The translations under genes and the position numbers were made by a program. Of a stretch of DNA of 64,000 nt, positions 4,531 through 55,387 are shown piece by piece; positions within the stretch are counted from its first letter, which is position 1; each line of letters opens with the position of its first letter. Below the pieces are notes generated by a model, which was given only the letters and a program-made list of their open reading frames with translations, did no database searches and was not told where the DNA came from. This stretch comes from a virus. The stretch spans positions 32,001-96,000 of IMG/VR virus record IMGVR_UViG_3300027791_000009; one strand, given 5' to 3'.

Positions 4531-5490
4531 ATGGCAATATTACGAGGCGGGAAAAGAATAGGAGGTATGGATATCAGAATTGGTATTCCTAGAGATACTT
4601 CTATGAACAATATTAACCGAGACCCAAGGTTCAAACAAAAGGTAGGTGCAAATCCTGAAACTACAATGGGTAGATTTCAATCCTATGTAAATGAATCAGA
4701 AGGTTTTGCTCGTAAGGCTAGATACTATGTTGTCTTTGAACTACCAACAGGTGGTAAGATTGCAGGTGGTATGGACTTTGGTGGTGCAGTACCTGGTGGT
4801 GACGGTATGGTACAAGGTGGTGAGATACGAAGATACGCTAACGAAGCAAACTTGCAACGAAGAGTACAAGCGTTTGTATCATCGGTAAATATGCCTGGTA
4901 GAACAATGAAGACTAAAGCAATAAAACACAATGGTCCACCAAGACACATTGTTTACGACTATGAAATGGCTGATGTATCAATGACATTTTATACAGACAA
5001 ATATTTAAGAGAAAGAATATTCTTTGAATTGTGGCAGAAGACTGCCTTTTCAAATATAACTCACAACTATGCTTACTATGATGAGTATGTAGCACCGATT
5101 AATATTCTTCAACTAGGTGCAGACCCAGGAGCACAAGAACGAGACGGTTCAACTTATGGTGTCAGATTGTGGGAAGCGTATCCTGTTTCAGTAGGTGATG
5201 TAGAGTATGCTTCAGGTTCAAATGAAGTACAAACATTTACCGTTCAGTTTAAATATAGATACTGGTTAAACTTTGCATTAGACCAACAAAACAAGTTTCA
5301 GATTGGTCAGTCGCAGTTTAATAGTGCTGTTGTCAAAGAAGGTGAGAGTGGATTTTTAAGTAAACTACCACCTGAATTGAGAAGAGCAGGCGAAGGTGTG
5401 CTACAAAACTTGAAGAGGTCGTTTCCAATCGGTAAGATTACTGGTGGAAGAGTTATGCCTCCATTCAAATTTGGACCACTAAATATATAA
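4531..5490 (+). CDS. gp54: tail tube initiator (gp54 / gp19-like fold)
   Basis: SVNMPGR, SMTFY.D, YYDEYV, LWEAYPVSVG, FTVQFKYRYW. Confidence 0.7.
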   Translation: MAILRGGKRIGGMDIRIGIPRDTSMNNINRDPRFKQKVGANPETTMGRFQSYVNESEGFARKARYYVVFELPTGGKIAGGMDFGGAVPGGDGMVQGGEIRRYANEANLQRRVQAFVSSVNMPGRTMKTKAIKHNGPPRHIVYDYEMADVSMTFYTDKYLRERIFFELWQKTAFSNITHNYAYYDEYVAPINILQLGADPGAQERDGSTYGVRLWEAYPVSVGDVEYASGSNEVQTFTVQFKYRYWLNFALDQQNKFQIGQSQFNSAVVKEGESGFLSKLPPELRRAGEGVLQNLKRSFPIGKITGGRVMPPFKFGPLNI

Positions 5491-5515: not shown

Positions 5516-6250
5516 ATGGCTTTACCAAAAATTGAAGTCCCAACATATAAGATAACTCTACCTAGTAAAGACCAGGAAGTAGAGTATAGACCTTTTCTGG
5601 TCAAAGAAGAGAAGATATTGATGATGGCAATGGAAGAGCAGAATGACGCTCAAATGAAAGCTGCCGTTAGAGATTTAATTAACTCTTGTACTTTCGGAAA
5701 ATTAGAAGTAACCAAACTACCACTATTTGACATTGAGTATTTGTTTTTAAATATTCGTGCCAAGTCTGTAGGTGAGATTGCGTCTTTCAAAGTTTTCTGT
5801 CCTGAAGATAAGGTTACACTTATACCTGTTGAAGTAGACTTGACAAAAGTTGAGGTACAGGTTGATGACGACCACACAAATAAAATTGTATTAGACGAGA
5901 CAAGAAATCTTGGTATTAGTATGAACTATCCTAACATTGACACTATTCCATTGGGCGTAGATAATTCTATGAATACAGACTCAATCTTTAAAACGATTGT
6001 TGATTGTATAGATTATATCTATGAGGGGGAAGAGGTGCATAAAGCGAAAGATAGTACAAAGGCTGAACTAATAGATTTTTTCAATAATCTTAACACACAA
6101 CAATTTGAGTTAATTAGAAAATTCTTTGACACAATGCCGAAGTTAAGGCATGAGCTCAAGGTCGTAAATCCTAAAACCAAGAAAGAGAGTGTGGTTACAC
6201 TCCAAGGACTATCTGATTTTTTCGTATCTGCCTCTCCCACAACAACCTAG
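5516..6250 (+). CDS. gp26: baseplate hub assembly protein gp26
   Basis: MALPKI..P.Y, YRPFLVKEEKIL, FDIEYLFLNIRAKSVGE, FFDTMPKL. Confidence 0.9.
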   Translation: MALPKIEVPTYKITLPSKDQEVEYRPFLVKEEKILMMAMEEQNDAQMKAAVRDLINSCTFGKLEVTKLPLFDIEYLFLNIRAKSVGEIASFKVFCPEDKVTLIPVEVDLTKVEVQVDDDHTNKIVLDETRNLGISMNYPNIDTIPLGVDNSMNTDSIFKTIVDCIDYIYEGEEVHKAKDSTKAELIDFFNNLNTQQFELIRKFFDTMPKLRHELKVVNPKTKKESVVTLQGLSDFFVSASPTTT

Positions 6251-6414
6251 AGGCGTACTTTGAGACTAACTTTGCATTAATGCAACACCATAAGTATAGT
6301 CTATCAGAATTGGATTCTCTTATTCCTTGGGAAAAAGAGGTTTATGTATCTTTACTGGTTAAACACCTTAAAGATGAGAAAGAAAAAGCAAGACGGGATA
6401 AAATGAATAAATAA
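6217..6414 (+). CDS. gp51: baseplate hub assembly catalyst gp51 (first ATG 6280; frame open from 6217)
   Basis: HNNLEAYFETNFALMQHHKYSLSELDSLIPWEKEVYVSLL, in the -1 frame relative to gp26. Confidence 0.8.
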   Translation, partial: FFRICLSHNNLEAYFETNFALMQHHKYSLSELDSLIPWEKEVYVSLLVKHLKDEKEKARRDKMNK

Positions 6415-6443: not shown

Positions 6444-6764
6444 ATGGCTGAAGAAATAAAAGAAGTTAAGGTTGCAGAACCTAAACAGAAAATACAAGTT
6501 GATTTAGAAGTTGATACTTCAATAAAAGACTTAGGTATCAATCCATATTCAAAGATAATACATATGGCAAGAGCAGTTGACGCTTGGAGAATATTCCCAA
6601 GATTGTTTTTGACCGTATATATTGTTTTACTATACAAATGTGTAATATGGTATATGAATTTACCAACACCTACTATGGAACAAAGTGGGTTAATCAGTAT
6701 CGTTGTTGGTGCTGGTGCAGCTTGGTTTGGTTTATATACTGGTTCAAGTAAAGGTAAAAATTAG
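6444..6764 (+). CDS. two-TM membrane protein
   Basis: VDAWRIFPRLF + TM, and EQSGLISIVVGAGAAWFGLY. Confidence 0.7.
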   Translation: MAEEIKEVKVAEPKQKIQVDLEVDTSIKDLGINPYSKIIHMARAVDAWRIFPRLFLTVYIVLLYKCVIWYMNLPTPTMEQSGLISIVVGAGAAWFGLYTGSSKGKN

Positions 6765-8333
6765 ATGGCCGCAAGTACACTAACACAAGCCTCACAAGAC
6801 GAGATAGTAAGCATATTCAAAGCAATCTCTAGTAAAGTACAAGGTTCAGTTGAAGGACTTGTTAAGACTACTCAGCCCAAACTAAACAAATTAGTTGCAG
6901 ACACAATAGACGCATTTAAAGACAAACCTCAACAAGTTAATAAACAAATGAACTTGTTAGCAAATAGGATGCAAGAGTTAGGTATGTCTGTAGATGACTT
7001 AACACAAGGCATAGAAGATAAAGATTTAACTGCTGATATGAAATCTCTACAAGACGCATTGCGTAATAGAGAACAAAAAATTGTAAAGGCAGACACAGAA
7101 GCAGCTGAATTGCGTAAACAAGGTGTAGCCGCAGAAGTAAAGATGACACAAGCCGGTGCCAAGGTAGTTATACTATCACAAAAAGAATTATCTAAACGAA
7201 CTGAAACATTACAATCAGAGCAAAAGATTTTAATTGAGCGAGAACAAAAGAATTTAAAAGCAACAAAAGAACTTGATAAGTTAACTGGTAAAGAAAAAAC
7301 AGCACAAGCAAATCTTATTAAAGCAGAAACAAAAAAGATAGCAAAAGAACGAGAAAAGATAGAAGAAAAAGAAAAGGCCATTGGCGGTAACCCTAGTAAT
7401 AACTATGGTGGTCAAGGTGGTGATTTGATAGACCCACGAGGTATGTTTGCTGGTATATCAGATACCTTTATGGGTATCAAAGATAGTATCACAGGACCAT
7501 TCGTAGAACTTGGTGAAATAGGAAAGCGTATGGGTAAGTCATTTATGAACTTTGGTAAAGCAATGAAGACACCAATCAAGTCATTAAAACTACTTGGTGC
7601 AAGTCTTATGGTTGCAGTACTACCTATGTTGTTGTGGGCTGTAGGTATATTAGCATTGATTGCTATTATCGCAGTTGCAATATTTAAGTTTCATGCTATC
7701 AAAGACGCAATCATAGACGCATATAACTATCTAGGAGATGTATTTACTAAGTTTGGTGAATATCTAAAAGAGAAGTGGGATGCCTTAGTAGAGTATATAG
7801 GTGGACTAAAAGATTCAATAATGGAGAAGTGGGATTCGTTTACAGGTGCATTTGGTGAAATGGTTGATTATGTAAGTAACCTAGGAAGTAAAATATGGGA
7901 TAGTATATCTGAAGCGTTTAGTAGTGTTGGTGATTTCTTAATGGATGGTTTCAAAACTATAGTTAATGGTGTTATCAAACTGCTTAACAAGGTACCTTTT
8001 GTCGATATACCTCTATTAGGTACAAGTGGTGGTTCAGCAGGTATGGAAACTGGTCCATCAACTAAAGCAGAAATAGAACCAAGCACAGGCGTTTCAGATA
8101 AAATTGCTAGTTTCTTTGATAAACTTACAGGTGGTAATGATAATGAAGAAAATGCTAAAACGCTCATGTCAGAAGGTGATGTTAGCAACTCTAAACAATC
8201 TAACAATGTTGGTGTAAACCAAGACAACAGACAAATCGTAACCACAAACAACCAAGAATCAGTATTTGCTGGTAGAGGCAATCCTAATCCAGACCCACCA
8301 AGTATGTGGGAAAAGATGACAAGTCTATTTTAG
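6765..8333 (+). CDS. tape-measure-like / gp29-like protein
   Basis: Coiled coil, hydrophobic stretch and periodic W/F helical repeats; position after gp26/gp51. Confidence 0.55.
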   Translation: MAASTLTQASQDEIVSIFKAISSKVQGSVEGLVKTTQPKLNKLVADTIDAFKDKPQQVNKQMNLLANRMQELGMSVDDLTQGIEDKDLTADMKSLQDALRNREQKIVKADTEAAELRKQGVAAEVKMTQAGAKVVILSQKELSKRTETLQSEQKILIEREQKNLKATKELDKLTGKEKTAQANLIKAETKKIAKEREKIEEKEKAIGGNPSNNYGGQGGDLIDPRGMFAGISDTFMGIKDSITGPFVELGEIGKRMGKSFMNFGKAMKTPIKSLKLLGASLMVAVLPMLLWAVGILALIAIIAVAIFKFHAIKDAIIDAYNYLGDVFTKFGEYLKEKWDALVEYIGGLKDSIMEKWDSFTGAFGEMVDYVSNLGSKIWDSISEAFSSVGDFLMDGFKTIVNGVIKLLNKVPFVDIPLLGTSGGSAGMETGPSTKAEIEPSTGVSDKIASFFDKLTGGNDNEENAKTLMSEGDVSNSKQSNNVGVNQDNRQIVTTNNQESVFAGRGNPNPDPPSMWEKMTSLF

Positions 8334-8761
8334 AATTTACCTAAATCGTCTTCTGTAAATATCTTAAACTCAAAACCTTGCATTTCGCAATAACGAACAG
8401 CGGCTGCCCATTTAGCTCTATTTTTGACATATGCTAATGTCTCATTGATATATGCTCTAGTCTTACGAGCTCTAGGTTTAGGTTTCTTTGTGAAGGCCTT
8501 AGGTTTGATTTCAATTATATACTTACCTTTCTTGGTAACTATAAAGAAATCAGGAAAGTAATTATGTATTCTCTTGGTCACAGGATTACGATAAGGAATA
8601 GCAATCTCTTCACTACCCCAATGTGTGATTCCTTCATTACGGTCGCAGTAAACCATAAATCTTCTCTCCCAATTAGAACGATAGATAACTTTTTCGATAT
8701 TACCTAGATATTTGTCTTTGTTTTGAGGTTTGTATCTGCCTTTATAACTTGCTGTAGCCAC
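8330..8761 (-). CDS. gp4: head completion nuclease gp4
   Basis: YKGRYKPQN..KY.G, YRSNWE, WGSEE, YFPDF, IEIKP. Confidence 0.9.
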   Translation of the reverse strand: MATASYKGRYKPQNKDKYLGNIEKVIYRSNWERRFMVYCDRNEGITHWGSEEIAIPYRNPVTKRIHNYFPDFFIVTKKGKYIIEIKPKAFTKKPKPRARKTRAYINETLAYVKNRAKWAAAVRYCEMQGFEFKIFTEDDLGKF

Positions 8762-26375: not shown

Positions 26376-29300
26376 ATGCCAAGTCCAACTGACTTTAACC
26401 TCTCGCCGTACTATGACGATTTCTCGGAAGATAAAGCCTTCCATAGAATATTGTTTAGACCAGCATTTGCTGTACAGGCTAGAGAACTAACACAATCGCA
26501 AACGATACTACAGAACCAAATTGAAAAGATGGGTAACCATATCTTTGAGCAAGGTGCTCAAATGATTCCTGGTGAGATTACTTACGATTTACAATACTAT
26601 GCGATTAAGTTAACATCATTTACAGGTACAAGTAATCTAACAGACTTTGTTGGAATAGAAGTAACCGGTCAAACATCTGGTGTTGTTGCGAAAGTAATTA
26701 ATTCAGATGTCGCAACTTCTACTGACCCTGCAACTCTTTATGTAAAATACACTAAAACAGGAACTGGAAATCAAACACCAGACTTTGTTGCTGGCGAAAC
26801 AATTTTAGGTGTACTTAATGGAAGTACAAATATTAGTGGAGTGGTTACAAGTGCTGAAACCGGTTCTGCTGCTTCAGTTGCTTCTGGTACTTACTACATT
26901 AATGGTTATGCTGTTAATGTTTCAAAACAAACAATTGTATTAGACAAGTATACAAACACACCATCTTACAGAGTAGGTCTAACGGTTACTGATAGTATTG
27001 TAACCCCTAACTTAGATGTCTCACTTGTAGACAATGCAGCCGGTTCATCAAACGCAAATGCTCCAGGTGCTCACAGATTTAAAATAGATTTAACTTTATC
27101 TAAACTTACAACGACTTCTGTTGAAGATTCAAGCTTCATAGAGTTATTAAGATTAGAAAAAGGTACTCTCCAGAATAGAGTTAGAACAACTGAATACTCT
27201 ATTTTGGAAGATACACTAGCAAGAAGAACTAGTGACGAAAGTGGCGATTACACAATCAGACCATTTGATTTAGATATTAGAGAACATTTAGATGATACTG
27301 CTGGCAATAGAGGTATCTTTACTGCTGCCGCTGGTGGTGACGCTAACAAACTTGCATTAGGTTTATCTCCTGGTAAAGCATATGTAAAAGGTTATGAAGT
27401 TGATAAAATTGGAACAACTTTTGTTCCTGTAGAAAAACCTAGAAGTTTTGGAAATGAAAATGGTTTCAATACTATCTTTGATGTTGGTAACTTTCTCAAT
27501 GTATCAAATGCTTATAACTCTCCGGACATTAACTTTGTAACCGGTAAGACAGAAGCGTTTAAAGGATTACAACTAAAACTTGCTAGTGAAGCATATACTG
27601 CTGGTAACATACCAACAAATGTTCAAAACAGAGTAAAAGACATCGGTCGTGCTAAATCTAAAGGTTATGAATTTAACGCAACGACAGGTGCTGGCATTTC
27701 AACTGCTTCAAACATATCTCCGTCTTCAAGTAATATATTCAAACATTATCTGTTTGATGTAGAAATGTTTAGTCATATAAAAATTCCAACAAATGTAGTA
27801 TTTACAAATGGTGAAACAATCACTGGTACTACTTCAGGTGCTAACGGTATTAAAGAAAGTGTTTCAACAAATACAACTTCGGCAATCGCTACATCAACAG
27901 CTGCAAATCCAGTAGTTATCACAATGTCTGCTGATTTAGAAGTTTCTGATGGTGACGCAATTACGATAGCAGGTGTCGCAACTCAAACAGAATTAAACGA
28001 CATTGTTTTCTATGTAAGACAAAAAGTTGGTGGTGTTGCAAAAAGAGAATTTGAATTGTATAACGCTGATGATGTTGCCATTGACGGTACAGGACATACA
28101 GGTGCTGGTTCCGGTGGTACTATCACAACATCTTGTGTAGTATTATCAAGTGTACAAGGTCAATTTATACCAGGTGAAACAATCACTGGTGGTACTTCAT
28201 CTAATACTGCTGTAGTAAAAGCAAATGTATTTGGCAATCAAGGTTTCACACATTACGGTTCAAGTGATGTAAAAGAAGTTACCATGGCAGGAAGTCCAGT
28301 ATATACTGCACAAGCTGATTTATCTGCAACATATGGAGAAAATAAAACACTATCTGGTAATATTTCAATTAGTGCTTCAACTTCGGATGTAACCGGTTTC
28401 AACACACAATTTTTAACAGAATTAAAAGTAGGAGATAGTGTTCAGTTTGCAACAACGACTGGTACTATTTTAACTAGAACGGTAATTAACATTGTCAATT
28501 CATCTTCAATCAGACTTGATAGTGCAATTTCAACAACTGCCGTTTCAAACTCATTGATTATAAGAAGAAGAGGAAAATTACAAGACGCAAGTAAAAACAT
28601 TTCGTTGTTCTCTTTACCTTACACAACAATTAAAACATTAAAAACAGCAAACAACTCTGGTATTTCTGATACATCATTTATTGTAAGAAAAACATTTGTA
28701 GGTTCTTTATCTTCAACTGGTGATATTACAATTACTGCAAACACAGGCGAAACTTTTGTTGCACAACAAGAACAAGATTATTCGGTAACTATTATGTCAG
28801 CAGGTGGTTCATCTTCTGCTGGTACAGCTGGTGACAAGATATCTACAACAGGTAATAACCATGAAGGTAATGCTTGTTTCACATTAGGTGGTTCTCCAGT
28901 AGGTCGTTCATTAACTTTAGATTTTGGTGCTAATCACTCTGACCACGAAGTAAAAATTATTGCGACTATATCTAAATCTGCACAAAACGAAAAATCAAAA
29001 AATTTAGTATCAAACTCGACAGCAACTATTACAACTTCAGCAGCTGCAACTGCAAATCATATTTCATTAGGTGTTGCTGACGGATATCAATTAGTATCTG
29101 TTAAAATGGCGGCTGACTTTAGTACAACACCAACTGCAAGTGATACAGACATCACAACAAGATTTACACTTGATAGTGGACAAAGAGATAACTTCTATGA
29201 TATTGCTAGACTAGTAAGAAAAGAAGGTAGCTTGGCACCAAGTGGACAATTATTAATTACATTTAATTATTTCACACACGGTTCTGGTGACTTCTTTAGT

Positions 29301-32300
29301 GTAGATAGTTATTCTGGTATTATTGATTACACAGCAATACCTAGTTATACTTCTGATACTTCAGGAGAAACTTATCAATTAAGAGACACATTAGACTTTA
29401 GACCTAGAGTAGATGACGCAAGTACAATTAACTCTGGTACACAAGATAGAACTTATCCTGCAACAGCTTCAATTGAAGTTGTTAAGTTTAAAACAAATGT
29501 GACCACAGACCACGAATTTTACAAAGGAAGAGTTGATAAACTATTCTTAAATAAAGAAGGTGCCTTTGAAGTACTTAAAGGTGCTGAAGCAAATGTACCA
29601 CAAGAGCCAGGTTCTATTGATAACGCAATGCACCTATACACTCTTTCTTTACCACCGTACACATTGTCACCAGATGATGTATCATACGAGACGGTAGAAA
29701 ATAGAAGATATACAATGAGAGATATTGGTGCTATTGATAAGAAGATTGATAGAATTGAATATTACACTCAATTGTCTCTATTAGAAACTGCGGCTCAATC
29801 TTTACAGATACAAGACGCTGATGGTTTCGATAGATTTAAAAATGGATTTGTTGTAGACAACTTTAACGGTCACGGTATCGGTGAAGTAACCAACGGTTCA
29901 TACAGATGTTCGATTGATTATGCAAAAGGCGAATTAAGACCTTTGTTTAACCAAGACGCTGTAAAACTAGAAGAGATTGACGAAGACGGTACAACATTAG
30001 TTGCTACTGACAGAGCGGCTGCAAACTATCAAAAGTCTGGTGATGTACTAACATTACCATTTACAGAAATAGATTTAATAAATCAACCTTTTGCTTCTAA
30101 AGCAATTAATGTTAACCCATTTGCAATTTTCAGTTGGATGGGAACAATAGATTTAACACCATCAAGTGATGAATGGAGAGAAACACAAAGAACTCCTGAT
30201 TTAGTAGTTAACTCAACTACAGGTGCGTGGGACCAATTACAAAGACAAAGTGGTATTACAGACCAAGATGAAATCTCACTTGGAACGGTATGGAATGAAT
30301 GGCAAACTAACTGGACTGGAAGAGCATTAACATCTTCAACTACAGCTTCAGGTGGAAGATTTATGCGTGGTCGTGCTATTGTACAAAGAACAGAAACTAC
30401 TTCTATCAACCAAGTTAACCAAAGTAGGTCAGGTATTACAACAACTGCCGTACCTCAAACGATAAGAACATCTATGGGAGATAGAGTTGTTAGTGTTGCA
30501 TTTGTACCATTTATCAGAAGCCGTGATGTTGCATTTAAAGCTACAAGATTAAAACCAAATACAAGAGTATTTCCATTCTTTGATAATGTAAATATTGCTA
30601 CTTATTGTACACCAGACGGTGGTTCAGTTGGTGGTAACTTAATTACTGACGGTGCTGGTGCTGTTGAAGGAGTATTCACAATACCGGATCCTAAAGTAAA
30701 TACAAATCCTAGATGGAGAACTGGAGAAAGAACATTTAGATTAACTTCTTCTTCTACTAACTCGCAAGACGCAGCTGCTGTTGCTACTGCGGCTAATGCT
30801 GAATATATTGCAAGAGGATTATTAAATACCGTTAGAGACACAATTGTTTCTACAAGAGAATTTAGAGGTGTACAACAAACGGTTACAGATTCACAAACCA
30901 TTTTACAAACATCTACAAGAGCAGGTACGCAAATTGTTGGTTGGGTTGATCCATTATCTCAAACATTTATGACAGATGAACCTGGTGGAGTATTCATATC
31001 TTCTGTTGATTTATTCTTTTCAACAAAAGACGCAAACATTCCTGTAACCGTTCAAATTAGAAATACGGTTAATGGTTATCCTGGAAGTAAATTATTACCA
31101 TTTGGTGAAGTTTCATTAAATCCAACTGCTGTAAATACAAGTACAGACGGTTCAGTTAAAACAACATTTACATTCCCTGCACCAATATACATACAAGATA
31201 AAGTTGAATATGCAATGACGGTATTGTCTAACTCAAATGATTACAATATGTATGTGGGTAGATTAGGAGAAACAAATATTGGTTCTAATAGAACAATATC
31301 TAAACAACCATATGCTGGTGTTATGTTCAAATCTCAAAACGGTTCAACTTGGACTGCTGAACAAAACGAAGATATGAAATTCACAATGAAAAGATGTGAG
31401 TTTAGTAATGTCGTAGGTACGGTTCACTTAGGAAGTAAAGAACTACCGGCACAAAATATTAAACAAAACGGATTAAGAACTACAAACGGTTCAGGTGTAA
31501 TTAGAGTTTTCTATTCAAATCACAATATGCACGATACTAATTCTGTGGTTACTATATCTGGTGTTCCTTCAGGAACTCTTAACGGTATTGCTTCGACAGA
31601 TATAAACGGAACATATACTTCTATTTCTAATATTACATTAGATAGTTTTGATATTACAACATCAGGAACTGCAAATACTGATGGTGATATCGGAGGCACA
31701 ACAATACTTGTTACCGGTAATAAACAATTTGATGTATTAAATCTAGGTGGTCTACAAACTATGACCGTTCCTGGTACAAACATTGAACCGTTTATTAGAA
31801 CAACATCTAGTAAGTCACTTCACGGTGCTCAAACACCATATTCATTAGTTTCTGAAAGTAATAGACAATCGGTTACATTAGTAGACGATATTTACTTTAC
31901 TGCGCCACAGGCTGTTATGTCTGGACCAAATGAAACAACTAGAATGGCAGGACAAAAATCTTTCTATACTATTATGAAATTATCAACGACAAATAATAAG
32001 TTGTCTCCAGTAATTGATTTAGATAGAAGTAGTGCTTTCTGTGTTGCAAATAGATTAAATAATCCAACTAGTGGTAATACACCTAACTATGTTCCTGAAA
32101 CTACTGCAAAAGGTTCATCAACTGCGTCTCAATATATTACGAAACCGGTTACACTTATTAATAACTCAACTGCATTAGATATTAGATTAACACAAGTTAT
32201 TAGAGATACTTCTAAAGTTGAAGTTTACTTTAGAACAACAAGTGCTGATGAAGTTAGAACTATCGGAGACATTGACTGGACACCTTTCAATGCTGGTGGT

Positions 32301-32477
32301 GTTGAAGATAATTCAGTTTCAAAATCTAAAGATGATTTTGATTTTAAAGAATATCAATATTCACAAGAACAATTGAACGCCTTTACTGCGTTTCAGATTA
32401 AGATTGTACTAAAAGGAACTAATACTAGTTACCCACCAATCTTACGAGACATGAGAGGTATCGCATTAGCGATTTAA
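26376..32477 (+). CDS. large virion structural protein (VrlC / DUF4815-like)
   Basis: FNLSPYYDDF, QARELTQ.Q, APGAHR, RYTMRDIG, RFKNGFVVDNF, DPLSQTF. Confidence 0.85.
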   Translation: MPSPTDFNLSPYYDDFSEDKAFHRILFRPAFAVQARELTQSQTILQNQIEKMGNHIFEQGAQMIPGEITYDLQYYAIKLTSFTGTSNLTDFVGIEVTGQTSGVVAKVINSDVATSTDPATLYVKYTKTGTGNQTPDFVAGETILGVLNGSTNISGVVTSAETGSAASVASGTYYINGYAVNVSKQTIVLDKYTNTPSYRVGLTVTDSIVTPNLDVSLVDNAAGSSNANAPGAHRFKIDLTLSKLTTTSVEDSSFIELLRLEKGTLQNRVRTTEYSILEDTLARRTSDESGDYTIRPFDLDIREHLDDTAGNRGIFTAAAGGDANKLALGLSPGKAYVKGYEVDKIGTTFVPVEKPRSFGNENGFNTIFDVGNFLNVSNAYNSPDINFVTGKTEAFKGLQLKLASEAYTAGNIPTNVQNRVKDIGRAKSKGYEFNATTGAGISTASNISPSSSNIFKHYLFDVEMFSHIKIPTNVVFTNGETITGTTSGANGIKESVSTNTTSAIATSTAANPVVITMSADLEVSDGDAITIAGVATQTELNDIVFYVRQKVGGVAKREFELYNADDVAIDGTGHTGAGSGGTITTSCVVLSSVQGQFIPGETITGGTSSNTAVVKANVFGNQGFTHYGSSDVKEVTMAGSPVYTAQADLSATYGENKTLSGNISISASTSDVTGFNTQFLTELKVGDSVQFATTTGTILTRTVINIVNSSSIRLDSAISTTAVSNSLIIRRRGKLQDASKNISLFSLPYTTIKTLKTANNSGISDTSFIVRKTFVGSLSSTGDITITANTGETFVAQQEQDYSVTIMSAGGSSSAGTAGDKISTTGNNHEGNACFTLGGSPVGRSLTLDFGANHSDHEVKIIATISKSAQNEKSKNLVSNSTATITTSAAATANHISLGVADGYQLVSVKMAADFSTTPTASDTDITTRFTLDSGQRDNFYDIARLVRKEGSLAPSGQLLITFNYFTHGSGDFFSVDSYSGIIDYTAIPSYTSDTSGETYQLRDTLDFRPRVDDASTINSGTQDRTYPATASIEVVKFKTNVTTDHEFYKGRVDKLFLNKEGAFEVLKGAEANVPQEPGSIDNAMHLYTLSLPPYTLSPDDVSYETVENRRYTMRDIGAIDKKIDRIEYYTQLSLLETAAQSLQIQDADGFDRFKNGFVVDNFNGHGIGEVTNGSYRCSIDYAKGELRPLFNQDAVKLEEIDEDGTTLVATDRAAANYQKSGDVLTLPFTEIDLINQPFASKAINVNPFAIFSWMGTIDLTPSSDEWRETQRTPDLVVNSTTGAWDQLQRQSGITDQDEISLGTVWNEWQTNWTGRALTSSTTASGGRFMRGRAIVQRTETTSINQVNQSRSGITTTAVPQTIRTSMGDRVVSVAFVPFIRSRDVAFKATRLKPNTRVFPFFDNVNIATYCTPDGGSVGGNLITDGAGAVEGVFTIPDPKVNTNPRWRTGERTFRLTSSSTNSQDAAAVATAANAEYIARGLLNTVRDTIVSTREFRGVQQTVTDSQTILQTSTRAGTQIVGWVDPLSQTFMTDEPGGVFISSVDLFFSTKDANIPVTVQIRNTVNGYPGSKLLPFGEVSLNPTAVNTSTDGSVKTTFTFPAPIYIQDKVEYAMTVLSNSNDYNMYVGRLGETNIGSNRTISKQPYAGVMFKSQNGSTWTAEQNEDMKFTMKRCEFSNVVGTVHLGSKELPAQNIKQNGLRTTNGSGVIRVFYSNHNMHDTNSVVTISGVPSGTLNGIASTDINGTYTSISNITLDSFDITTSGTANTDGDIGGTTILVTGNKQFDVLNLGGLQTMTVPGTNIEPFIRTTSSKSLHGAQTPYSLVSESNRQSVTLVDDIYFTAPQAVMSGPNETTRMAGQKSFYTIMKLSTTNNKLSPVIDLDRSSAFCVANRLNNPTSGNTPNYVPETTAKGSSTASQYITKPVTLINNSTALDIRLTQVIRDTSKVEVYFRTTSADEVRTIGDIDWTPFNAGGVEDNSVSKSKDDFDFKEYQYSQEQLNAFTAFQIKIVLKGTNTSYPPILRDMRGIALAI

Positions 32478-34024: not shown

Positions 34025-34504
34025 ATGGACGAACAAACAATCTTATGGATTTCCAGATTAAAAGAAGAAATCCAATCACACACTAGATACGAAGCAAGAC
34101 AACTATTTTACATAGATGAAGAAGGACTTGACCGTGAGGTTAAAGACCATATGTCTTATGGAGAATGGATAAGAGAGTACGATAGATTTAAAACTATTAA
34201 GGTGGAAGGCTTAGAAGATGTAGCCTGGTTAAAAGAAGTTTTAGACGAAGTAGTATTGAATATCACAGGAAAGAAAAGACAAGATATTCATTTATTTGTA
34301 AATCAGAAACCAGGTATTAGTTTTAAAGAACATAAAGATGATAAAGATGTTTACTTATATGTTGTCAAAGGCAAAAAGAAAGTATCTTTAGATGGTGTTA
34401 TTAAACCAGTATATGATGATGAAGGAATATTCATAGAACAAGGTGTAAAACATTATGTTGAAAACGAAGCAGATACTTGGGGGTTAAGTATAGGAGTTAT
34501 ATAA
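34025..34504 (+). CDS. cupin/JmjC-like oxygenase
   Basis: IHLF, SFKEHKDDKDVYLYVVKGKK, IEQGVKHYV (HxD...H). Confidence 0.7.
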   Translation: MDEQTILWISRLKEEIQSHTRYEARQLFYIDEEGLDREVKDHMSYGEWIREYDRFKTIKVEGLEDVAWLKEVLDEVVLNITGKKRQDIHLFVNQKPGISFKEHKDDKDVYLYVVKGKKKVSLDGVIKPVYDDEGIFIEQGVKHYVENEADTWGLSIGVI

Positions 34505-35535
34505 TGAATTGGATGTTTTATTTAAAAACAACCGAAACCTGCAACTTGAATTGTAAACATTGTTTTACTTCAGGTTCAAATGGTCCTAAAGTCTATTGGA
34601 ATCCAGATAAAACCATTAAGTGGTTACAAGATTTCAGAAAATACAATTTTCACAAACACGATACAGCACATTTAGAACTACACGGTGGCGAACCGTTTTT
34701 AGTTCCTGTGTCTGAAATGCAATATGTCTATGAGAACACAAAAGATTTGTGGATTCAACAATCAATGGGCATAACTTCTAACTTAACATTTAAACTAAAA
34801 CAAGAACACATTGACTTCATTAAAGGTCCACTTAAAAATAGATGTGGAACTAGTTGGGATCCTAACATAAGATTTGCAAATGAGAAACAAGCAAACTTAT
34901 GGCGTAAGAATGTAGAGACTTTAATTAGTGAAGGTGTTGATATTAAACTCTTCATATCAGTAACCAAAGACACAATTAGAATTGAACCTATTGAATTACT
35001 TAAATGGGTTAAAGATTTAGGTGTAAAAGAAATGGCACTTGAAAGATTGACTGGAAATGGTAATGCAAACTTGCATCCAGAGATATTTCCTAGAAATATA
35101 GAACAAGATAAGTGGTTTTTAAAAATGCACGAGCAATCTATTCAGTATAACACAAGAGATTGGTTTGATAATGAGTTTTTTGAAACAATTTACTCAAAAT
35201 TTGATACTGGTTCAACAAAAGAAGGCACTTTCTGCCGAGATTGTGAACAAAAACTATTTACACTTAACGCAACTGGCACAATAGGTGGTTGTCCTAATGC
35301 AGCTCCCGAGTTTAATTTTGGAACTATAGATGACCCTCTAGTAGAACTTATAAATAGTCCTAAGAGATTAGAAAATGTTGCTTGTGAAGTAGCAAGAAAT
35401 CCTAAATGCTTTGAGTGTGAAGTATTTAAGTATTGTGGTGGCGATTGTCACCAATTAGCATGGCAAGACGACATATGTGGCGCTCCTAAATCTCTTATGA
35501 AACACTTAAAAAAACAAAGTGAGGCGAAATGGTAA
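34504..35535 (+). CDS. radical SAM/SPASM enzyme 1
   Basis: CNLNCKHC, HGGEPF, CRDC...GGCPN, CFECEVFKYCGGDC. Confidence 0.92.
   Translation: MNWMFYLKTTETCNLNCKHCFTSGSNGPKVYWNPDKTIKWLQDFRKYNFHKHDTAHLELHGGEPFLVPVSEMQYVYENTKDLWIQQSMGITSNLTFKLKQEHIDFIKGPLKNRCGTSWDPNIRFANEKQANLWRKNVETLISEGVDIKLFISVTKDTIRIEPIELLKWVKDLGVKEMALERLTGNGNANLHPEIFPRNIEQDKWFLKMHEQSIQYNTRDWFDNEFFETIYSKFDTGSTKEGTFCRDCEQKLFTLNATGTIGGCPNAAPEFNFGTIDDPLVELINSPKRLENVACEVARNPKCFECEVFKYCGGDCHQLAWQDDICGAPKSLMKHLKKQSEAKW
35349..35356 (+). promoter_or_regulatory. internal late promoter upstream of the putative substrate gene
   Basis: Perfect TATAAATA inside rSAM1, about 170 nt before ATG35529. Confidence 0.45.
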
Positions 35536-36302
35536 CTTTAAACAACCCGATAACAAGTCAAAATATAGTTGATAGATTTGAAGAACTGGTAACAGATGTA
35601 GCAGACCACCATATTGTATGGGGTACTGATAATCTACCAGGACACTCTTCATTTACTTCTGCTGATTTTGGTGGTGTTGTTGACGGATTTGAATTAACAC
35701 TAACAGGTGTGACTGGAACTTATACAGCAGGTGAAACGGTTAACTCTACAATAACTGCAACAACTGGTATCGTAGTTAGTTATTCTAGCAATGTATTAAA
35801 ATTAAGAACAATTAATCCAGGTGCTGGTCAAACAGGATTCTTACAAAACGATATTATATCAGGCACTTCTTCAGGTGCTGTAGGTACGGTTAATACTTTA
35901 GCAGTAATAAGTGCTGTATCAATTGGTATCACAGGTTCTAATATCGGTAATGCAGGTTCAGTAATTACTGCAAACAATATTTACGGTACACTAAAAGCAG
36001 AAATGAATAATTATACTAATATCAAAAATACATACGCTATAGTTAGTATGACAGGTGCAGGAACACAATATTCGGATACACAAATTGCACACTTAACAAC
36101 TGCACAAAGAACAACATTAAATCCATCACAACCTAGTAGTTTACAACCTGGTCAAACAATTGACGATACAAATTTAGAATCGTTTATGTCGAGCCTTGCA
36201 AACGCATATTCTACTGAAAGAGGTAACACTTATACATTAACAAAAACTATATGTCATAGTAGCTGTCATAGTAGTTGTCACGGAAGTAGAGGAAGAAGAT
36301 AA
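35529..36302 (+). CDS. virion-type protein with C-terminal (CHxS)3 RiPP-like core; putative rSAM substrate
   Basis: Thr/Ser/Gly-rich body with a baseplate-like GETV/FLQNDIISG module; ends ICHSSCHSSCHGSRGRR. Confidence 0.75.
   Translation: MVTLNNPITSQNIVDRFEELVTDVADHHIVWGTDNLPGHSSFTSADFGGVVDGFELTLTGVTGTYTAGETVNSTITATTGIVVSYSSNVLKLRTINPGAGQTGFLQNDIISGTSSGAVGTVNTLAVISAVSIGITGSNIGNAGSVITANNIYGTLKAEMNNYTNIKNTYAIVSMTGAGTQYSDTQIAHLTTAQRTTLNPSQPSSLQPGQTIDDTNLESFMSSLANAYSTERGNTYTLTKTICHSSCHSSCHGSRGRR
36252..36287 (+). repeat. three 12-bp tandem repeats encoding CHSS/CHSS/CHGS
   Basis: TGTCATAGTAGC TGTCATAGTAGT TGTCACGGAAGT. Confidence 0.9.
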
Positions 36303-36967
36303 TGATTAATACTATTGTACCGATTGAATTGAAAGACTTAAAAAAATACTTTGAAGATAAGACAGAAAGTTATCTTATTGATTACGAAAACAGCACATTA
36401 AAAGGTGCTCAGTTTCTAACCTATTTAAGTAATTTAGATATACCTTGTGATATATTAAATATGGACGAAGAACTAATTAGTGAATATCTTAACACACAAA
36501 TGTTAGTAAATATACCTAAATTAGAAAAAGAAATAATCGCTGTATTATTTGAACACAAGGGGTTGTCAAAGACAGATAAATATAAGAGTGTTATAGAAAA
36601 GAACAAAGAAATACTTGACAAGTGGGAAGGCAAATTAGAAAGTCTACCATTGTATAATATGTCAATCGTTGGTGAAGGTGCTTTTAATGAATTTGTTGAG
36701 AGTTATCCTAAAGACGAGACAGAAGATGTTAGAGGTATTAACTTTGTTTCATTATTAAAACACAAAGAATTTTATAGTTATTATCAAATACAAAAAGAAG
36801 GTATTGTTAAGAACTATACGAAGTACTTTAAAGATTATATGTTTAAAGGTAAATCTTTATTTGAATATTGGGCGACAGAAAGTAATCCACTATTCTTAAT
36901 GACTTGGGCAATTGCCGAAGGTAAATTTGATACAAAAGAATATTTAAAAGGTAAAGAGAAAAACTAA
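36302..36967 (+). CDS. hypothetical protein in rSAM cluster
   Basis: Coupled to the upstream gene by TAATG; FLTYLSNLDIPCD. Confidence 0.8.
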   Translation: MINTIVPIELKDLKKYFEDKTESYLIDYENSTLKGAQFLTYLSNLDIPCDILNMDEELISEYLNTQMLVNIPKLEKEIIAVLFEHKGLSKTDKYKSVIEKNKEILDKWEGKLESLPLYNMSIVGEGAFNEFVESYPKDETEDVRGINFVSLLKHKEFYSYYQIQKEGIVKNYTKYFKDYMFKGKSLFEYWATESNPLFLMTWAIAEGKFDTKEYLKGKEKN

Positions 36968-36968
36968 T

Positions 36969-48416: not shown

Positions 48417-51400
48417 ATGGCAGATTTTATTCTAGGTAGACTTAAATTTCACTTCAAAGGAGATTGGGTTACAGGAACGGCATACATCAAAGATGATGTT
48501 GTAAGATACGGAGGAAATAGCTTCGTGGCGATGGCGAACCATACAGGTTCATCAGCGTTTGAAACAGATTTAACAGCGACTAAATGGAAAAAGATGGTTG
48601 CTGGACAAGAATGGAAAGGTGCTTGGGCAGGTTCTACTAACTATAAAGTAGATGATGTTGTCCAATGGGGTGGTTCTACATTTGTATGTAATACTGCTCA
48701 CGCTTCACAAACAGATTTATATGATGACACTTCAAAGTGGACATCATTTGTTCCAGGATTTAAATGGACAGGAACATATGCTTCTGCGACTGCATATAAA
48801 GTTAACGATTTAGCAAAGTACGGTGCGAATGTTTACATTTGTACGGTTGAACATACTGCCGCTTCAACTATTGATACTTCTAAATTTACTTTATTCGTTT
48901 CAGGACTAGAATTTGAAGATTCATATGCTTCGGGTACTGCATATCAAGCAGGTGACATTGTAACCTACGGTGGTTACAACTATGTTGCCGAACAACAATC
49001 AACAGGTCAAACACCATATAACAACGCTTCATATTGGACGGTTTTAACAACTGGTTTCAAAATGCTAGGTACATATGCTGGTGGTACTGCATACAAAACT
49101 GGTAATGTAGTAAAATATGGTGGTCACACTTATGTTGCAAAACAAGACGCAACTGGAGTTGTACCAACAACTACTGCGACTTGGGATTTATTAAACGAAG
49201 GATTTAACTGGAGAAACAATTGGACAGACGGAACTGCTTATGCACCTGGCGACACAATTGGTTACGGTTCATCATCTTATAGATGTAAACTTGCTCACAC
49301 AGCTACTGCTGTTGTAGGAGACGCATTACGACCTGATTATGATACAGGCGGAGTTTATTGGGACCTACTTGCTGAAGGAGATTCAAACTTTGTTACCACG
49401 GTAAGAGGTGACATATTAACAAGAAACGCTACACAAAATATTAGATTGCCAATCGGTACAGCTGGTTCAGTTGTTTCATCAAATGGAACAGATGTTAGTT
49501 GGACAATACCTGGGGTTAGTTTTAGTGTTTATTATGTTGCAAAACATGGTACAGATAGTGATCCTTCTTCTGATACAGGAAGAGGAACTTCATTAGACAA
49601 ACCTTGGTTAACTTTGCAATATGCAACAACTTGGATTAATAGCAATGTTGCTACTAGTGTATTCAAAACGGTTTATGTTAAAACTGGAGAATACGAAGAA
49701 GCATTACCTATCATCTTATCTGCTAATACACAAGTAGTTGGAGACGGTGTTAGAAGTACAAGAATTAAACCTGCTGCTGGTAACTCAACAGCTACTGGAT
49801 TAACAAACACTCCAAACAATCGTGCTGATATGTTTAGAGTACATAACGGTACAACGGTTACAGGATTTACATTTACTGGAATGGTTGGAACTATGGGAAG
49901 TGCTGACTCTTACGGAGTTGCAAGACCTAATATAGCTGACGGTGCAACACGAAGTGGTGTTGTATTTGCATTAGACCCAGGAACTGGAGTTTCTGATACG
50001 ACTACACACATTTCAACTAAATCACCATTTATTCAGAATTGTACTCACTTTGGATTCGGTTCTGTTGGTATTAAGATTGACGGTTCATTACACAACTCTG
50101 GAAACAGAAGTATACTTGCAAACGACTTTACACAAGTCTCTTCTGACGGTGTTGGAGTTTGGGCATTGAATAATGCTAAATCAGAATTAGTATCTGTATT
50201 TACATATTACGCACATCACGGTTACTTATGTGATAGTGGTGCTGTTATGAGAAGTTTGAACTCAAACAACTCTTACGGTGAATACGGTTCAACAGCTGCT
50301 GGTATTGACTCAACAGAAACACCATATACTGCTGTTGTAGATTTAAGAAATAATGAAGCACAAGTAGGAAGAGTATTAGTATCCGGTTCAGGTATTGGAA
50401 GATTAGAATTACAATATGCTGGACAAGCTTACTCATCTTCTGCTGTCTCAATTGCTGGATCCGGTGCCTCTGGTGCTGTATCAACAACTCATGCTGACGG
50501 TGCTGTAAACTTTATAAAGATTAACACTACCGGTTCAACACACTTTACTACAACAGGTTATGCACAAGCAGGAACTGCAAGTACAATTAAACTTGCTGCT
50601 TCTGATTCACAACCTGATGACTTCTACAATGGTATGAGAATTACGGTATATACAGGAACTGGTTATGGTAACACAGGAGTTATCGCTGACTATGTTGCTT
50701 CTACAAAAACTGCAACGATACAAAAAGAAGCAGGCTCTGCCGGTTTTGATGTATTCGTAAACTCTGGATTATCTCCTGCTACTGCATTTGATACAACTTC
50801 AGGATATGAAATTGAACCAAGAGTTGCTTTAAGTGGTGGTGGTTCTCCTAGTAGAAACGCACTCGCAAGAGCAGTTGTAGAAAATCAACAAATTTCAAAA
50901 ATTCTTATATTAGACGGAGGTGCCGGTTATTCTAGTGCACCAACGGTAACAATTACAGACCCTAACGCAAGTACGGTAGCAACTGCAACATCACACATTA
51001 GTGACGGTGTAATTTCACAGACTACGGTAACAACAAGTGGCTCTGGATATAAAACAGAAACAACAACTGCAACTATTACTGGTGACGGTTATGCTGAAAT
51101 CTCTAGTGAAGGTACTGCCTTTGTTAGACTAACAGGATTATCTAAATCACCAACTGGTGGTGACATTATTGAATTTGCTGGAATATCCGGTCAAGCATAT
51201 TATGTTGTTAGTGTAACCGGTTACGCTGGTGGCGCTGGACTTGTTAGAGTAAATCCTAAATTTACAACTTCTAACGCTCCAACTCATGCTGAAACTGCAA
51301 CATTAAGAAGTAATTACTCAAACATTAGATTGACTGGACATGACTTCTTAGATGTAGGTACTGGTGATATTGTATCAACAAATTATCCTAACACACCAAC

Positions 51401-55100: not shown

Positions 55101-55379
55101 GGATATAGTAGTGATTATACCAGCAGACAATCAACTAATGGTATTGAAGAAACAGATGATTATTATTTCCAAATGCAAAGAATGCCTAATTACGCTCACG
55201 GAAGAGTTGAAGATGTAAGAGGACGAGGTTACTACTCTACAGACGGTAATAGATATCACTTTAGAGAAATTAGAACTTTTGATAACAGATACCTAATTTG
55301 GGGTTACGGTGGAGACCATATACAAGGTCAAAATGACGGTAATTATAGCTCTATGCCACAACCCGCTGTTTTAGGATAG
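52161..55379 (+). CDS. RCC1-repeat virion protein 1
   Basis: Repeated WAWGYNGYGQLG-type motifs. Confidence 0.8.
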   Translation: MATTKTRIGNLFFNYQGDYSSTKAYIKDDVVLHNNSDYICVKNSSTTGVAPDTGTEAQQKRYARVTIATSATTGGNAYKWDGESTWPQTEVQYKIGDTLVLYQDGNDFDDNKIAFSNSATSKETNLFHTDVTYMLDGKSVGGGTASGNYFNSGTFNNATKREIRIEITAETPKEIYIFNFDNPSATWGPKMVVAENQVWKEIRQSFKWRGDHSEASIVYNPNDLVHINVPVDNDFSTNNQYSGDQIQNIRATYVCLREHTSGVAGTLPWDQDTDTDANKYWERISEEHQFDDETITDSGAVATIDTSSTSASPARQAGFYPFVNTTNITAAAENSGAGRTNGYNTPQVNITVEGYQSAKTVGNFSTAHYKRKPGIYRNLTPTSTSGAGSNATFDVEVDNNGAVISVAVTKKSLGGQMGGLGYAVNETITLADALIGAGGAPDFTFDVTAIGTWGALQIEIARDQKRGMQNAQWENNNEPELLGGENNAAADVLAVDAQVLYSSAAVQFSVVTTQKKARGYQNFFSGNRLEAMALCNENGPIGDDHPLYRLPGQFQQANCYNWPCFINGRGSITSWGSNSNGQNGLETGSVMTGVGMVFPFLDWYRSTDNGGSGIHTTPDGEPPKAIQLLSGYEVGMALFNNGEIYHWGYGGHGQNGDAADSNRGYPTRPGGTYQEIYQASNTSTHTLKDTRIKRIYITNWGGDNNTNTHSVYALDTNGELWAWGYNGYGQLGQNNTTNLNRPTKINKTTYFNGNKIDAFWTAGAGYAFCFALDVTGKLYTWGYNGYGVLGQGNTTNLSVPTQIPTIVWDNGAANPGKIKKLLVDSQQSYQRCAILTEKGKIYWCGRNEYGWAMMGNTTDVSTFTIMSNGPGSGTYSDCQNMWFTGNGRYASFWTKDSTDSIKCCGYNGNYELGIGNSTNQTAAISPKWQINGTTTSDLHNIKDIGCNSEYGNQWMCNVWVLTYDGFMFNVGRNNYGIGAQGYSSDYTSRQSTNGIEETDDYYFQMQRMPNYAHGRVEDVRGRGYYSTDGNRYHFREIRTFDNRYLIWGYGGDHIQGQNDGNYSSMPQPAVLG

Positions 55380-55387
55380 TATAAATA
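55380..55387 (+). promoter_or_regulatory. T4-type late promoter
   Basis: TATAAATA. Confidence 0.75.

What the first reader, a model, noticed from the sequence alone, without database searches (positions are those of the whole stretch)
6214..6414. Probable -1 programmed frameshift fusing gp26 to gp51
Seen: near the end of gp26 is a canonical slippery heptamer T TTT TTC (6217-6223). The -1 frame has TGA at 6214-6216 and is open from exactly 6217 into gp51. A stem GCCTCT(6230-35)/AGAGGC(6249-54) begins 6 nt downstream. gp51-like sequence (HNNLEAYFETNFAL) continues upstream of the first ATG (6280), which has no SD. Established: tail-assembly chaperones such as lambda G/GT are made by -1 frameshifting just upstream of the tape measure gene. 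Inference: gp26/gp26-51 is the T4-like counterpart of G/GT.
Basis: partly seen in the sequence, partly recalled or inferred. Interest (0 to 1): 0.78.

Follow-up and report, generated by a model that had tools for sequence, protein, structure and literature searches.

The report
Frameshift in T4-like tail chaperone gene
One tail-assembly gene of this uncultured marine T4-like phage very probably makes a 244-residue and a 299-residue protein because some ribosomes slip back one base on a conserved TTTTTTC, a trick already published for T4-like phages, so this is a sound but ordinary finding.

Summary
gp26 (5516-6250, Pfam T4_baseplate) carries T TTT TTC at 6217-6223 in the X XXY YYZ register. 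The -1 frame is open from 6217 to 6414 and matches the C-terminal module of gp51 from its second residue.

The comparative evidence is strong:
- 90 of 91 related loci keep T TTT TTY in register.
- Synonymous-site variation switches from frame 0 to frame -1 exactly at the heptamer.
- The ATG at 6280 is missing in 16 of 74 distinct relatives.
- T4-type gp51 (phage CC31) is a natural in-frame gp26-like plus C-module fusion, joined at the same point.
- The three best structural matches to residues 1-87 of the gp26 model are the three solved tail assembly chaperones.
- Gene order is tube-like, gp26, C-module, small ORF, tape measure.

So this is a lambda G/GT-type chaperone pair. The claimed downstream stem exists but is no better than chance (z -1.19) and is not conserved.

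This is not new. Vladimirov, Gautam and Davidson (Virology 2022) identified the T4-like chaperone genes. I saw only the title and two citing sentences, not the paper. This scan has also reported the same thing on at least 8 other genomes. Ribosomal versus transcriptional slippage is not settled by sequence alone.

The parts
5516..6250 (+). gp26 = short chaperone form (TAC-N), 244 aa, 0 frame
   Evidence: Pfam PF12322 T4_baseplate 4.5e-65, 219.8 bits against a cut-off of 24.5, residues 9-236. phrog_150 3.6e-71. AF2 model pLDDT 93. Residues 1-87 match HK97 TAC 2ob9 at Z 6.7.
6217..6223 (+). slippery heptamer T TTT TTC (X XXY YYZ in the gp26 frame)
   Evidence: T TTT TTC in 81 and T TTT TTT in 9 of 91 related loci. 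Entropy is 0 at heptamer positions 0-5 in 74 distinct sequences.
6223..6414 (+). -1 frame extension (TAC-C module, 'gp51-like'): 63 codons plus stop read after the slip. Long form = gp26 residues 1-236 + 63 = 299 aa.
   Evidence: -1 frame open 6217-6414. phrog_634 7.8e-27, profile positions 56-116 of 121, from residue 2 of the ORF. Aligns to CC31 gp51 residues 167-213. Wobble phase is -1 from the heptamer on. Helical model, pLDDT 70.
6280..6414 (+). the 44-aa ORF that gene callers would annotate as 'gp51'; probably not a separate gene
   Evidence: ATG at the homologous place in only 58 of 74 distinct relatives. No SD-like run upstream.
6230..6254 (+). 6-bp hairpin GCCTCT/AGAGGC with a 13-nt loop, 6 nt after the heptamer; a possible but unsupported stimulator
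   Evidence: -9.3 kcal/mol, z -1.19, 19 of 200 shuffles as good. Present only in the window's clade, with no covariation.
6204..6208 (+). AAGGA, a Shine-Dalgarno-like run 9-13 nt upstream of the heptamer (a lead only)
   Evidence: An SD-like 4-mer lies at -17..-7 in 38 of 74 distinct relatives, against a mean of 7.8 (max 24) in other 11-nt windows. Confounded by a conserved Gly codon.
4531..5490 (+). tail-tube-like protein (gp54/gp19.2 type) immediately upstream
   Evidence: phrog_45 tail tube 2.4e-34. Pfam Phage_TTP_2 at 22.6 bits, below the cut-off of 27.
6444..6764 (+). small ORF between the chaperone and the tape measure gene; looks hydrophobic by eye, function unknown
   Evidence: phrog_10198, unknown function, 5.2e-21. 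Translation.
6765..8333 (+). tape-measure-like protein (gp29 position), 522 aa
   Evidence: Weak matches to 9 PHROG families named tail length tape measure protein among 13 matched; best is phrog_1535 at 9.5e-09.

Best explanation
gp26 is the tail assembly chaperone of this T4-like phage and is decoded in two ways. Most ribosomes read 5516-6250 and release the 244-aa short form. A minority slip back one base while the two tRNA-Phe sit on UUU UUC (6218-6223), re-pair on UUU UUU (6217-6222), and continue with CGU at 6223. That yields a 299-aa long form whose last 63 residues are the helical 'gp51-like' module. By analogy with lambda G/GT, the shared N part would coat the tape measure protein encoded just downstream (6765-8333), and the extra C module would link that complex to another tail part. 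Both forms would be left out of the finished tail. Shown here: the signal, its conservation, the switch of coding phase, the natural fusion in T4-type phages, the TAC-like fold and the gene order. Inferred: that the slip is ribosomal, its efficiency, and all binding partners.
For: (1) Heptamer in register: 90 of 91 loci, counting the window, 10 named phages and 80 IMG/VR contigs. S-PM2 and Aeromonas AsFcp_1 have it as well. It spans Kyanoviridae, a pelagiphage, KVP40, phiAS5, phiM12 and a Stenotrophomonas phage.
(2) The codon before the run always ends in T although it encodes D, S or N (GAT 70, AGT 2, TCT 1, AAT 1 of 74). The first Phe codon is TTT in 74 of 74. Elsewhere in the same genes GAT is 76% of Asp codons and TTT 79% of Phe codons.
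(3) Mean entropy by codon phase is 1.53/0.87/0.63 upstream and 0.74/0.52/1.26 downstream, so the wobble phase moves by one base at the heptamer. The first downstream codon is CGN with a free third base.
(4) The 21 residues FFR[IV]xLSHxxLExYxxxNFxL before the ATG are conserved. The ATG is absent in 16 of 74 relatives, and 4 of 74 have no ATG/GTG/TTG within 96 nt.
(5) CC31 gp51 is PF12322 (1.9e-43, residues 3-168) followed by a C-terminus that aligns to the window's -1 ORF (residues 167-213 against 2-49, E 6e-5). The Pfam domain of the window's gp26 ends at the FF of the heptamer.
(6) VIA-align top three of 48,161 chains: 3fgx_B Z 6.9, 2ob9_B (HK97 tail assembly chaperone) Z 6.7, 3klu_A Z 6.2; the next is 4.8. 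PMC9603447 (passages read) calls all three tail assembly chaperones.
(7) Synteny is tube-like, gp26, C module, then tape measure.
(8) Citing sentences: PMC12846349 names polyT -1 frameshift signals in TAC-N genes of T4-like phages. PMC10885494 says some T4-like phages instead carry a short gene and a fused long gene.
Against: - No protein or reporter data exist for this phage.
- The downstream hairpin is not significant and not conserved, so no stimulator is established.
- A run of 6-8 T could also support RNA polymerase slippage, which would give the same protein.
[quoted passage not shown] I could not read the paper, so I do not know whether it argues against ribosomal slippage for phages like this one.
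- 58 of 74 relatives do keep an ATG at the place of 6280, so a separate 44-aa product is not excluded as a by-product.
- The fold match has Z below 8, which the tool warns can be a common arrangement. Foldseek found nothing.
- The tape-measure assignment rests on weak PHROG hits.
Confidence: 0.8

Rival explanations
1. Transcriptional slippage. RNA polymerase adds one U on the T6 run, so a fraction of mRNAs carry gp26 and the C module in one frame. The protein products would be identical to those of ribosomal slippage.
For: The site is a homopolymer of 6 T here and 7-8 T in 9 of 91 relatives. The title of Vladimirov et al. [quoted passage not shown]
Against: From general knowledge (recalled), efficient polymerase slippage usually needs runs of about 8-9 or more. 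The register needed for tandem tRNA re-pairing is kept in 90 of 91 loci. Four relatives have only ATT TTC (4 T) yet keep the conserved -1 ORF, and K751 and Maynard have no ATG at the junction. Contigs from RNA libraries X15, X16 and X18 cross the run without an indel, but contigs drop rare variants, so this is weak evidence.
Confidence: 0.1
2. Two separate genes. gp51 is a 44-aa protein started at ATG 6280, possibly by re-initiation after the gp26 stop 30 nt upstream, and no fusion is made.
For: This is how the named relatives are annotated: Mosig, P-HM1, S-CAM3, phiM12 and S-PM2. The ATG is present in 58 of 74 relatives. KVP40, Ps15 and LIMEstone1 have an ATG overlapping the gp26 stop.
Against: It does not explain the invariant synonymous T's of the heptamer, the switch of wobble phase at the heptamer, or the conserved 21 residues upstream of the ATG. 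It also does not explain the 16 of 74 relatives without that ATG or the in-frame fusion in T4-type gp51. There is no SD-like run before 6280. The annotated starts differ between relatives.
Confidence: 0.07
3. Chance. An AT-rich genome gives T runs and short open frames with no function.
For: The genome is AT-rich, and TTT is 79% of Phe codons.
Against: Conservation across 90 of 91 loci that share as little as 24-50% protein identity. Family matches of the -1 ORF at 7.8e-27.
Confidence: 0.01

Closest known systems
TAC-N / TAC-NC genes of T4-like phages (Vladimirov, Gautam, Davidson, Virology 2022, doi 10.1016/j.virol.2021.11.003). Paper not held; only the title in reference lists and two citing sentences were seen.
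   Same: The same gene family (gp26/gp51, PF12322), the same polyT signal at the 3' end of the short gene, and the same reading as a tail assembly chaperone.
   Different: Nothing that I can show. This window is one more uncultured marine member. I cannot say which phages that paper examined, or what mechanism it favours for them.
Phage T4-type gp26 and gp51 (hub assembly chaperones in Table 2 of Leiman et al. 2010, PMC3004832, passages read); examined here in phage CC31.
   Same: gp26 is the short form. gp51 is a gp26-like domain plus the C module, joined at the same FF[RK] point.
   Different: T4-type phages use two separate, divergently transcribed genes. Their gp26 has no heptamer (GAA TTC TTC AGG) and ends ...EFFRYL. 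The window uses one gene and a slip.
Lambda gpG/gpGT and the conserved tail-chaperone frameshift of long-tailed phages (Xu, Hendrix, Duda 2004). Seen as a reference and in a passage of PMC10885494; details are recalled.
   Same: [quoted passage not shown]
   Different: No detectable sequence similarity. The heptamer is U UUU UUC rather than lambda's (recalled) G GGA AAG. gp26 is larger (244 aa) and has extra domains after the roughly 87-residue TAC-like part. A 106-aa ORF lies between the chaperone and the tape measure gene.
HK97 gp13 tail assembly chaperone (PDB 2ob9), YqbN (3klu) and Rbstp2171 (3fgx)
   Same: They are the top three structural matches to residues 1-87 of the gp26 model: Z 6.2-6.9, 82-85 residues aligned, rmsd 3.4-4.3.
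   Different: Sequence identity is 4-11% and Z is below 8. Foldseek found nothing, and profile-against-PDB sequence search found nothing. They cover only the first third of gp26.
Vandenendeviridae (Pakpunavirus) chaperone locus with a conserved GTTTTT -1 signal (PMC12846349, passages of section 24 read)
   Same: The downstream 'hypothetical' ORF is re-read as the C part of the long chaperone form, using the same kind of comparative argument and a polyT signal.
   Different: A different phage family. I did not test whether its chaperone protein is related to gp26.

Membership tests
Tail assembly chaperone with G/GT-type frameshift | Gene lies between a tail tube gene and the tape measure gene | tested here: met
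   Tube-like 4531-5490 (phrog_45 2.4e-34), gp26 5516-6250, C module to 6414, a 106-aa ORF, then the TMP-like gene 6765-8333 with 9 weak tape-measure PHROG families. The order is the same in phiM12 and Mosig.
Tail assembly chaperone with G/GT-type frameshift | Slippery heptamer near the 3' end, with an open -1 frame that extends the protein | tested here: met
   T TTT TTC at 6217-6223, -1 frame open to 6414. 90 of 91 loci keep it. Coding phase switches there.
Tail assembly chaperone with G/GT-type frameshift | Two proteins with a common N-terminus are actually made, the long one in minor amount | not testable with these tools
   Needs mass spectrometry, a western blot or a reporter. Contigs from RNA libraries say nothing about translation.
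Tail assembly chaperone with G/GT-type frameshift | TAC fold (HK97 gp13-like) | tested here: met
   The three solved TACs rank 1-3 of 48,161 chains (Z 6.9, 6.7, 6.2; next 4.8) over model residues 1-87. PMC9603447 confirms their identity as TACs. Caveat: Z is below 8, and Foldseek gave no match.
Tail assembly chaperone with G/GT-type frameshift | Binds the tape measure protein (N part) and a tube or hub protein (C part); absent from virions | not testable with these tools
No proteomics exist for this phage.
Pfam PF12322 T4_baseplate (gp26/gp51) | Score above the curated gathering cut-off | tested here: met
   219.8 bits against 24.5.
gp51 'baseplate hub assembly catalyst' (phrog_634) | Match to the family profile over its length | tested here: inconclusive
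   The -1 ORF matches at 7.8e-27 but only profile positions 56-116 of 121. Full T4-type gp51 also carries a gp26-like N part, which here is supplied only through the slip.
Canonical -1 PRF cassette (heptamer + spacer + stimulatory structure) | Stable, conserved downstream stem-loop or pseudoknot 5-9 nt after the heptamer | tested here: not met
   The window hairpin has z -1.19. Mean z over 74 relatives is -0.78, with 8 of 74 below -2. The stem is absent in the GCCCUUUC clade and shows no compensatory change. No Rfam element was found. Many phage chaperone shifts work without one (recalled), so this does not weaken the claim of a shift.

The most novel reading that the evidence does not exclude
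The event common to the whole PF12322 family may not be the textbook two-tRNA slip. It could be a single P-site tRNA-Phe slip on U UUY, helped by the nearby 0-frame stop and an upstream Shine-Dalgarno-like run. Ackermannviridae and phage Cygsa01 keep only ATT TTC yet still have the conserved start-less -1 ORF. In most relatives the 0-frame stop follows the run by 0-1 codons. An SD-like 4-mer sits 7-17 nt upstream in 38 of 74. If so, the window's clade, whose stop lies 8 codons further on and which has gained a hairpin, would be a natural variant with a differently tuned short-to-long ratio.
Probability: 0.15. Interest if true: 0.35.

Novelty: already known. Interest (0 to 1): 0.15.

Why it matters
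The value is mainly for annotation. In public records the C module is either called a separate 44-57-aa 'gp51' with inconsistent starts (Mosig, P-HM1, S-CAM3, phiM12, S-PM2) or not called at all (ACG-2014b, S-SSM4, K751, Maynard). It should be annotated as a ribosomal-slippage join with gp26.

It also explains why T4, with its two separate genes 26 and 51, looked like an exception to the frameshift rule of long-tailed phages. The family is very abundant in the ocean: at least 8000 close proteins and 4400 cluster representatives at 50% identity. Since the point is in print and the scan has met it repeatedly, it adds no new biology.

Tried and rejected
- Downstream stem-loop as stimulator: not above chance and not conserved. 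Rfam found nothing relevant; the only match was an unrelated motif on the other strand at E 0.23.
- RNA evidence for or against an inserted U: the four runs from RNA libraries are held only as contigs. X15, X16 and X18 cross the run with 0 gaps and no indel is listed. This cannot show rare slippage, nor even transcription.
- Natural in-frame fusions among close relatives: the search for longer proteins found 3 (P0001-P0003), each from one contig. One contains a stretch that resembles the +1-frame reading of the window. They look like homopolymer or assembly indels and I do not count them.
- Sequence search of the PDB with the gp26 profile: 2 hits at E 0.13 and 0.55, unrelated. Foldseek against the PDB: no match at E <= 0.001.
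- Literature: searches did not find the prior paper directly. It surfaced through a citing sentence, but the library does not hold it.
- The TGA at 6214-6216 directly before the heptamer is incidental. In most relatives the -1 frame opens 3-90 nt further upstream.

Full report
**Observation.** The window is part of a 119,869-base IMG/VR virus record. It carries the baseplate and tail genes of a T4-like marine phage: gp59-like, gp32-like, gp2, a tube-like protein, gp26, a tape-measure-like protein, gp4, gp48, gp53-like, gp5, gp25, gp6 and others. The ORF 5516-6250 is gp26 (Pfam T4_baseplate 4.5e-65; phrog_150 3.6e-71). Its last codons read CTA TCT GAT TTT TTC GTA TCT GCC TCT CCC ACA ACA ACC TAG. 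T TTT TTC at 6217-6223 is therefore a heptamer in the X XXY YYZ register. In the -1 frame, TGA lies at 6214-6216 and the frame is then open to 6414. That 65-codon frame matches phrog_634 ('baseplate hub assembly catalyst', gp51) at 7.8e-27 from its second residue. It also matches the last 52 profile positions of the gp26 family phrog_150. The first ATG/GTG/TTG in that frame is at 6280, with no Shine-Dalgarno-like run before it.

**Is it more than chance?** I collected the gp26 junction from the window, 10 named phages and 80 IMG/VR contigs sharing 50-92% gp26 identity.
- Of these 91 loci, 81 have T TTT TTC and 9 have T TTT TTT in register within the last 20 codons. One, the Ackermannviridae phage LIMEstone1, has neither.
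- The set spans cyanophages, a pelagiphage, KVP40, Aeromonas phiAS5, Sinorhizobium phiM12 and a Stenotrophomonas phage. Two more, S-PM2 and AsFcp_1, also have the heptamer.
- 88 of the 90 heptamer-bearing segments were long enough to analyse, and they give 74 distinct junction sequences. In these the codon before the run is GAT 70, AGT 2, TCT 1 and AAT 1. It always ends in T, whatever the residue. The first Phe codon is TTT in 74 of 74. Elsewhere in the same genes GAT is 76% of Asp codons and TTT 79% of Phe codons.
- Neighbouring wobble positions carry about 1.5 bits of entropy; heptamer positions 0-5 carry none.

**Coding phase.** Anchored on the heptamer, mean entropy by position modulo 3 is 1.53/0.87/0.63 in the 60 nt upstream, where the variable position is the third base of frame 0. 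In nt 7-96 downstream it is 0.74/0.52/1.26, where the variable position is the third base of frame -1. The switch is immediate: the first codon after the run is CGN with a free third base, then [I/V/L]. The 21 residues between the heptamer and the ATG (FFR[IV]xLSHxxLExYxxxNFxL) are as conserved as the rest of the module. The ATG is replaced in 16 of 74 sequences by GTG, ATA, ATT, GTA, CAT, ATC, CAC or GTT. Eleven of 74 have no ATG within 96 nt, and 4 of 74 have no ATG, GTG or TTG. A separately initiated 44-aa gp51 cannot explain this.

**The T4 comparison.** In the T4-type phage CC31, genes 26 and 51 are divergent. gp26 ends ...KEFFRYL* (GAA TTC TTC AGG) with no slippery run and is followed by gene 25. 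CC31 gp51 (217 aa) matches PF12322 at 1.9e-43 over residues 3-168, phrog_150 at 6.8e-72 and phrog_634 at 8.6e-24. Its residues 167-213 align with residues 2-49 of the window's -1 ORF (E 6e-5). T4-type gp51 is therefore an in-frame fusion of a gp26 paralogue and the C module, joined at the point where the window has its heptamer. The Pfam domain of the window's gp26 ends at F236, the second Phe of the run. This matches how PRFect (PMC10885494, passage read) summarises Vladimirov et al.: some T4-like phages carry a short gene plus a long gene that is a fusion.

**Is gp26 a tail assembly chaperone?**
- An AlphaFold2 model built from 99 sequences has pLDDT 93 and pTM 0.88.
- Foldseek against the PDB found nothing at E <= 0.001, and a profile search of PDB sequences found nothing.
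- The exhaustive VIA-align search of 48,161 chains put 3fgx_B (Z 6.9, 85 aligned), 2ob9_B 'bacteriophage HK97 tail assembly chaperone' (Z 6.7, rmsd 3.4, 82 aligned) and 3klu_A YqbN (Z 6.2) at ranks 1-3, all over model residues 1-87 or 5-95. Rank 4 scores 4.8.
- PMC9603447 (passages read) states that these three are the phage tail assembly chaperones with solved structures.
- Z is below the tool's comfort line of 8. Even so, all three solved chaperones topping the list is hard to credit to chance.
- The gene order is tube-like, gp26, C module, a 106-aa ORF, then a tape-measure-like protein. This is the lambda V-G-T-H order with one insertion; phiM12 and Mosig share it.
- Leiman et al. 2010 (PMC3004832, Table 2, passage read) already list T4 gp26 and gp51 as hub assembly chaperones.
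- The C module alone folds as three helices at moderate confidence, pLDDT 70.

**Mechanism.** The most likely event is a tandem -1 slip. tRNA-Phe on UUU (P site) and on UUC (A site) re-pair on UUU UUU, and decoding resumes at CGU 6223. The short form is 244 aa; the long form is 236 + 63 = 299 aa. Across 74 relatives the mean z is -0.78. The stem exists only in the window's clade, both arms encode conserved residues of the -1 frame (ALSH, LEA), and there is no compensatory change. I therefore do not count it.

Two weaker leads:
- An SD-like 4-mer lies 7-17 nt upstream in 38 of 74 relatives, against a mean of 7.8 in other windows. It overlaps a conserved Gly codon, so the signal is confounded.
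- In most relatives the 0-frame stop follows the run by 0-1 codons.

**Rivals.** Transcriptional slippage on the T run would give the same protein and is not excluded. Against it:
- the short run of 6 T;
- the conserved tRNA register;
- four relatives (LIMEstone1, K751, Maynard, Cygsa01) that keep only ATT TTC yet retain the conserved -1 ORF, two of them with no ATG at the junction.

Contigs from RNA libraries cross the run without an indel, but contigs cannot show rare variants. Separate initiation or re-initiation at 6280 fails on the conservation upstream of the ATG. Chance is excluded.

**What is known.** PMC12846349 (section 24 read) says polyT sequences are known -1 signals in TAC-N genes of T4-like phages, citing Vladimirov, Gautam and Davidson, Virology 2022;566:9-15. 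That paper is not in the library. I saw its title and two citing sentences only, and its supplements not at all. [quoted passage not shown] From the PRFect sentence I take this to mean the two-gene solution of T4, but I cannot confirm that. The scan's own notes show the same gp26/gp51 slip reported on at least 8 other genomes, one of them marked later as 'it is in print'. My direct searches for gp26/gp51 plus frameshift found no other paper on it.

**Verdict.** Novelty: already known, and this is one more uncultured marine member. Interest is low.

Noticed in passing
L094 (Klebsiella phage K751), L095 (Salmonella phage Maynard), L011 (LIMEstone1), L093 (Pseudomonas phage Cygsa01): the gp26 3' ends: These relatives have ATT TTC Axx TAA instead of the heptamer, yet keep a conserved -1 ORF (xFHL[IM]FExDLLxYF...). 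In K751 and Maynard that ORF has no ATG at the junction and is not annotated. The shift there may rest on the U UUC tetramer alone.
   Followed up: partly
window 34477-43251: Four paralogous radical SAM proteins (phrog_1802; E 1.2e-65, 9.2e-41, 1.1e-56, 6.8e-31) are interleaved with ORFs of unknown function, inside the tail and baseplate region of a T4-like phage.
   Followed up: no
window 52161-62184: Three large consecutive proteins (1072, 1367 and 731 aa) match families named 'regulator of chromosome condensation' (RCC1-like repeats; phrog_4219, phrog_7220). They lie next to a tail fibre gene (48417-52133) and are probably fibre or adhesin proteins.
   Followed up: no
window 26376-32477: A 2033-aa protein of a PHROG family with no known function (phrog_358, 1821 bits) directly follows the baseplate wedge genes.
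   Followed up: no
window 6204-6208 and homologous places in relatives: An SD-like run (AAGGA here) lies 9-13 nt before the heptamer. An SD-like 4-mer is present at -17..-7 in 38 of 74 distinct relatives, against 7.8 on average elsewhere. Its spacing resembles that of the dnaX stimulator (recalled). It overlaps a conserved Gly codon.
   Followed up: partly
P0001, P0003 (metagenome proteins): The collection's precomputed Pfam labels give PF28602 for the C module alongside PF12322. That family is not in the local Pfam copy, which found nothing for the -1 ORF. Pfam may therefore already have a model for this module.
   Followed up: no
window 8330-8761 (- strand): The gp4 head-completion gene (phrog_218 2.6e-52) also matches the Pfam Tn7 TnsA-like endonuclease N-terminal domain (5.7e-18). 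It sits on the opposite strand between the tape measure gene and gp48.
   Followed up: no
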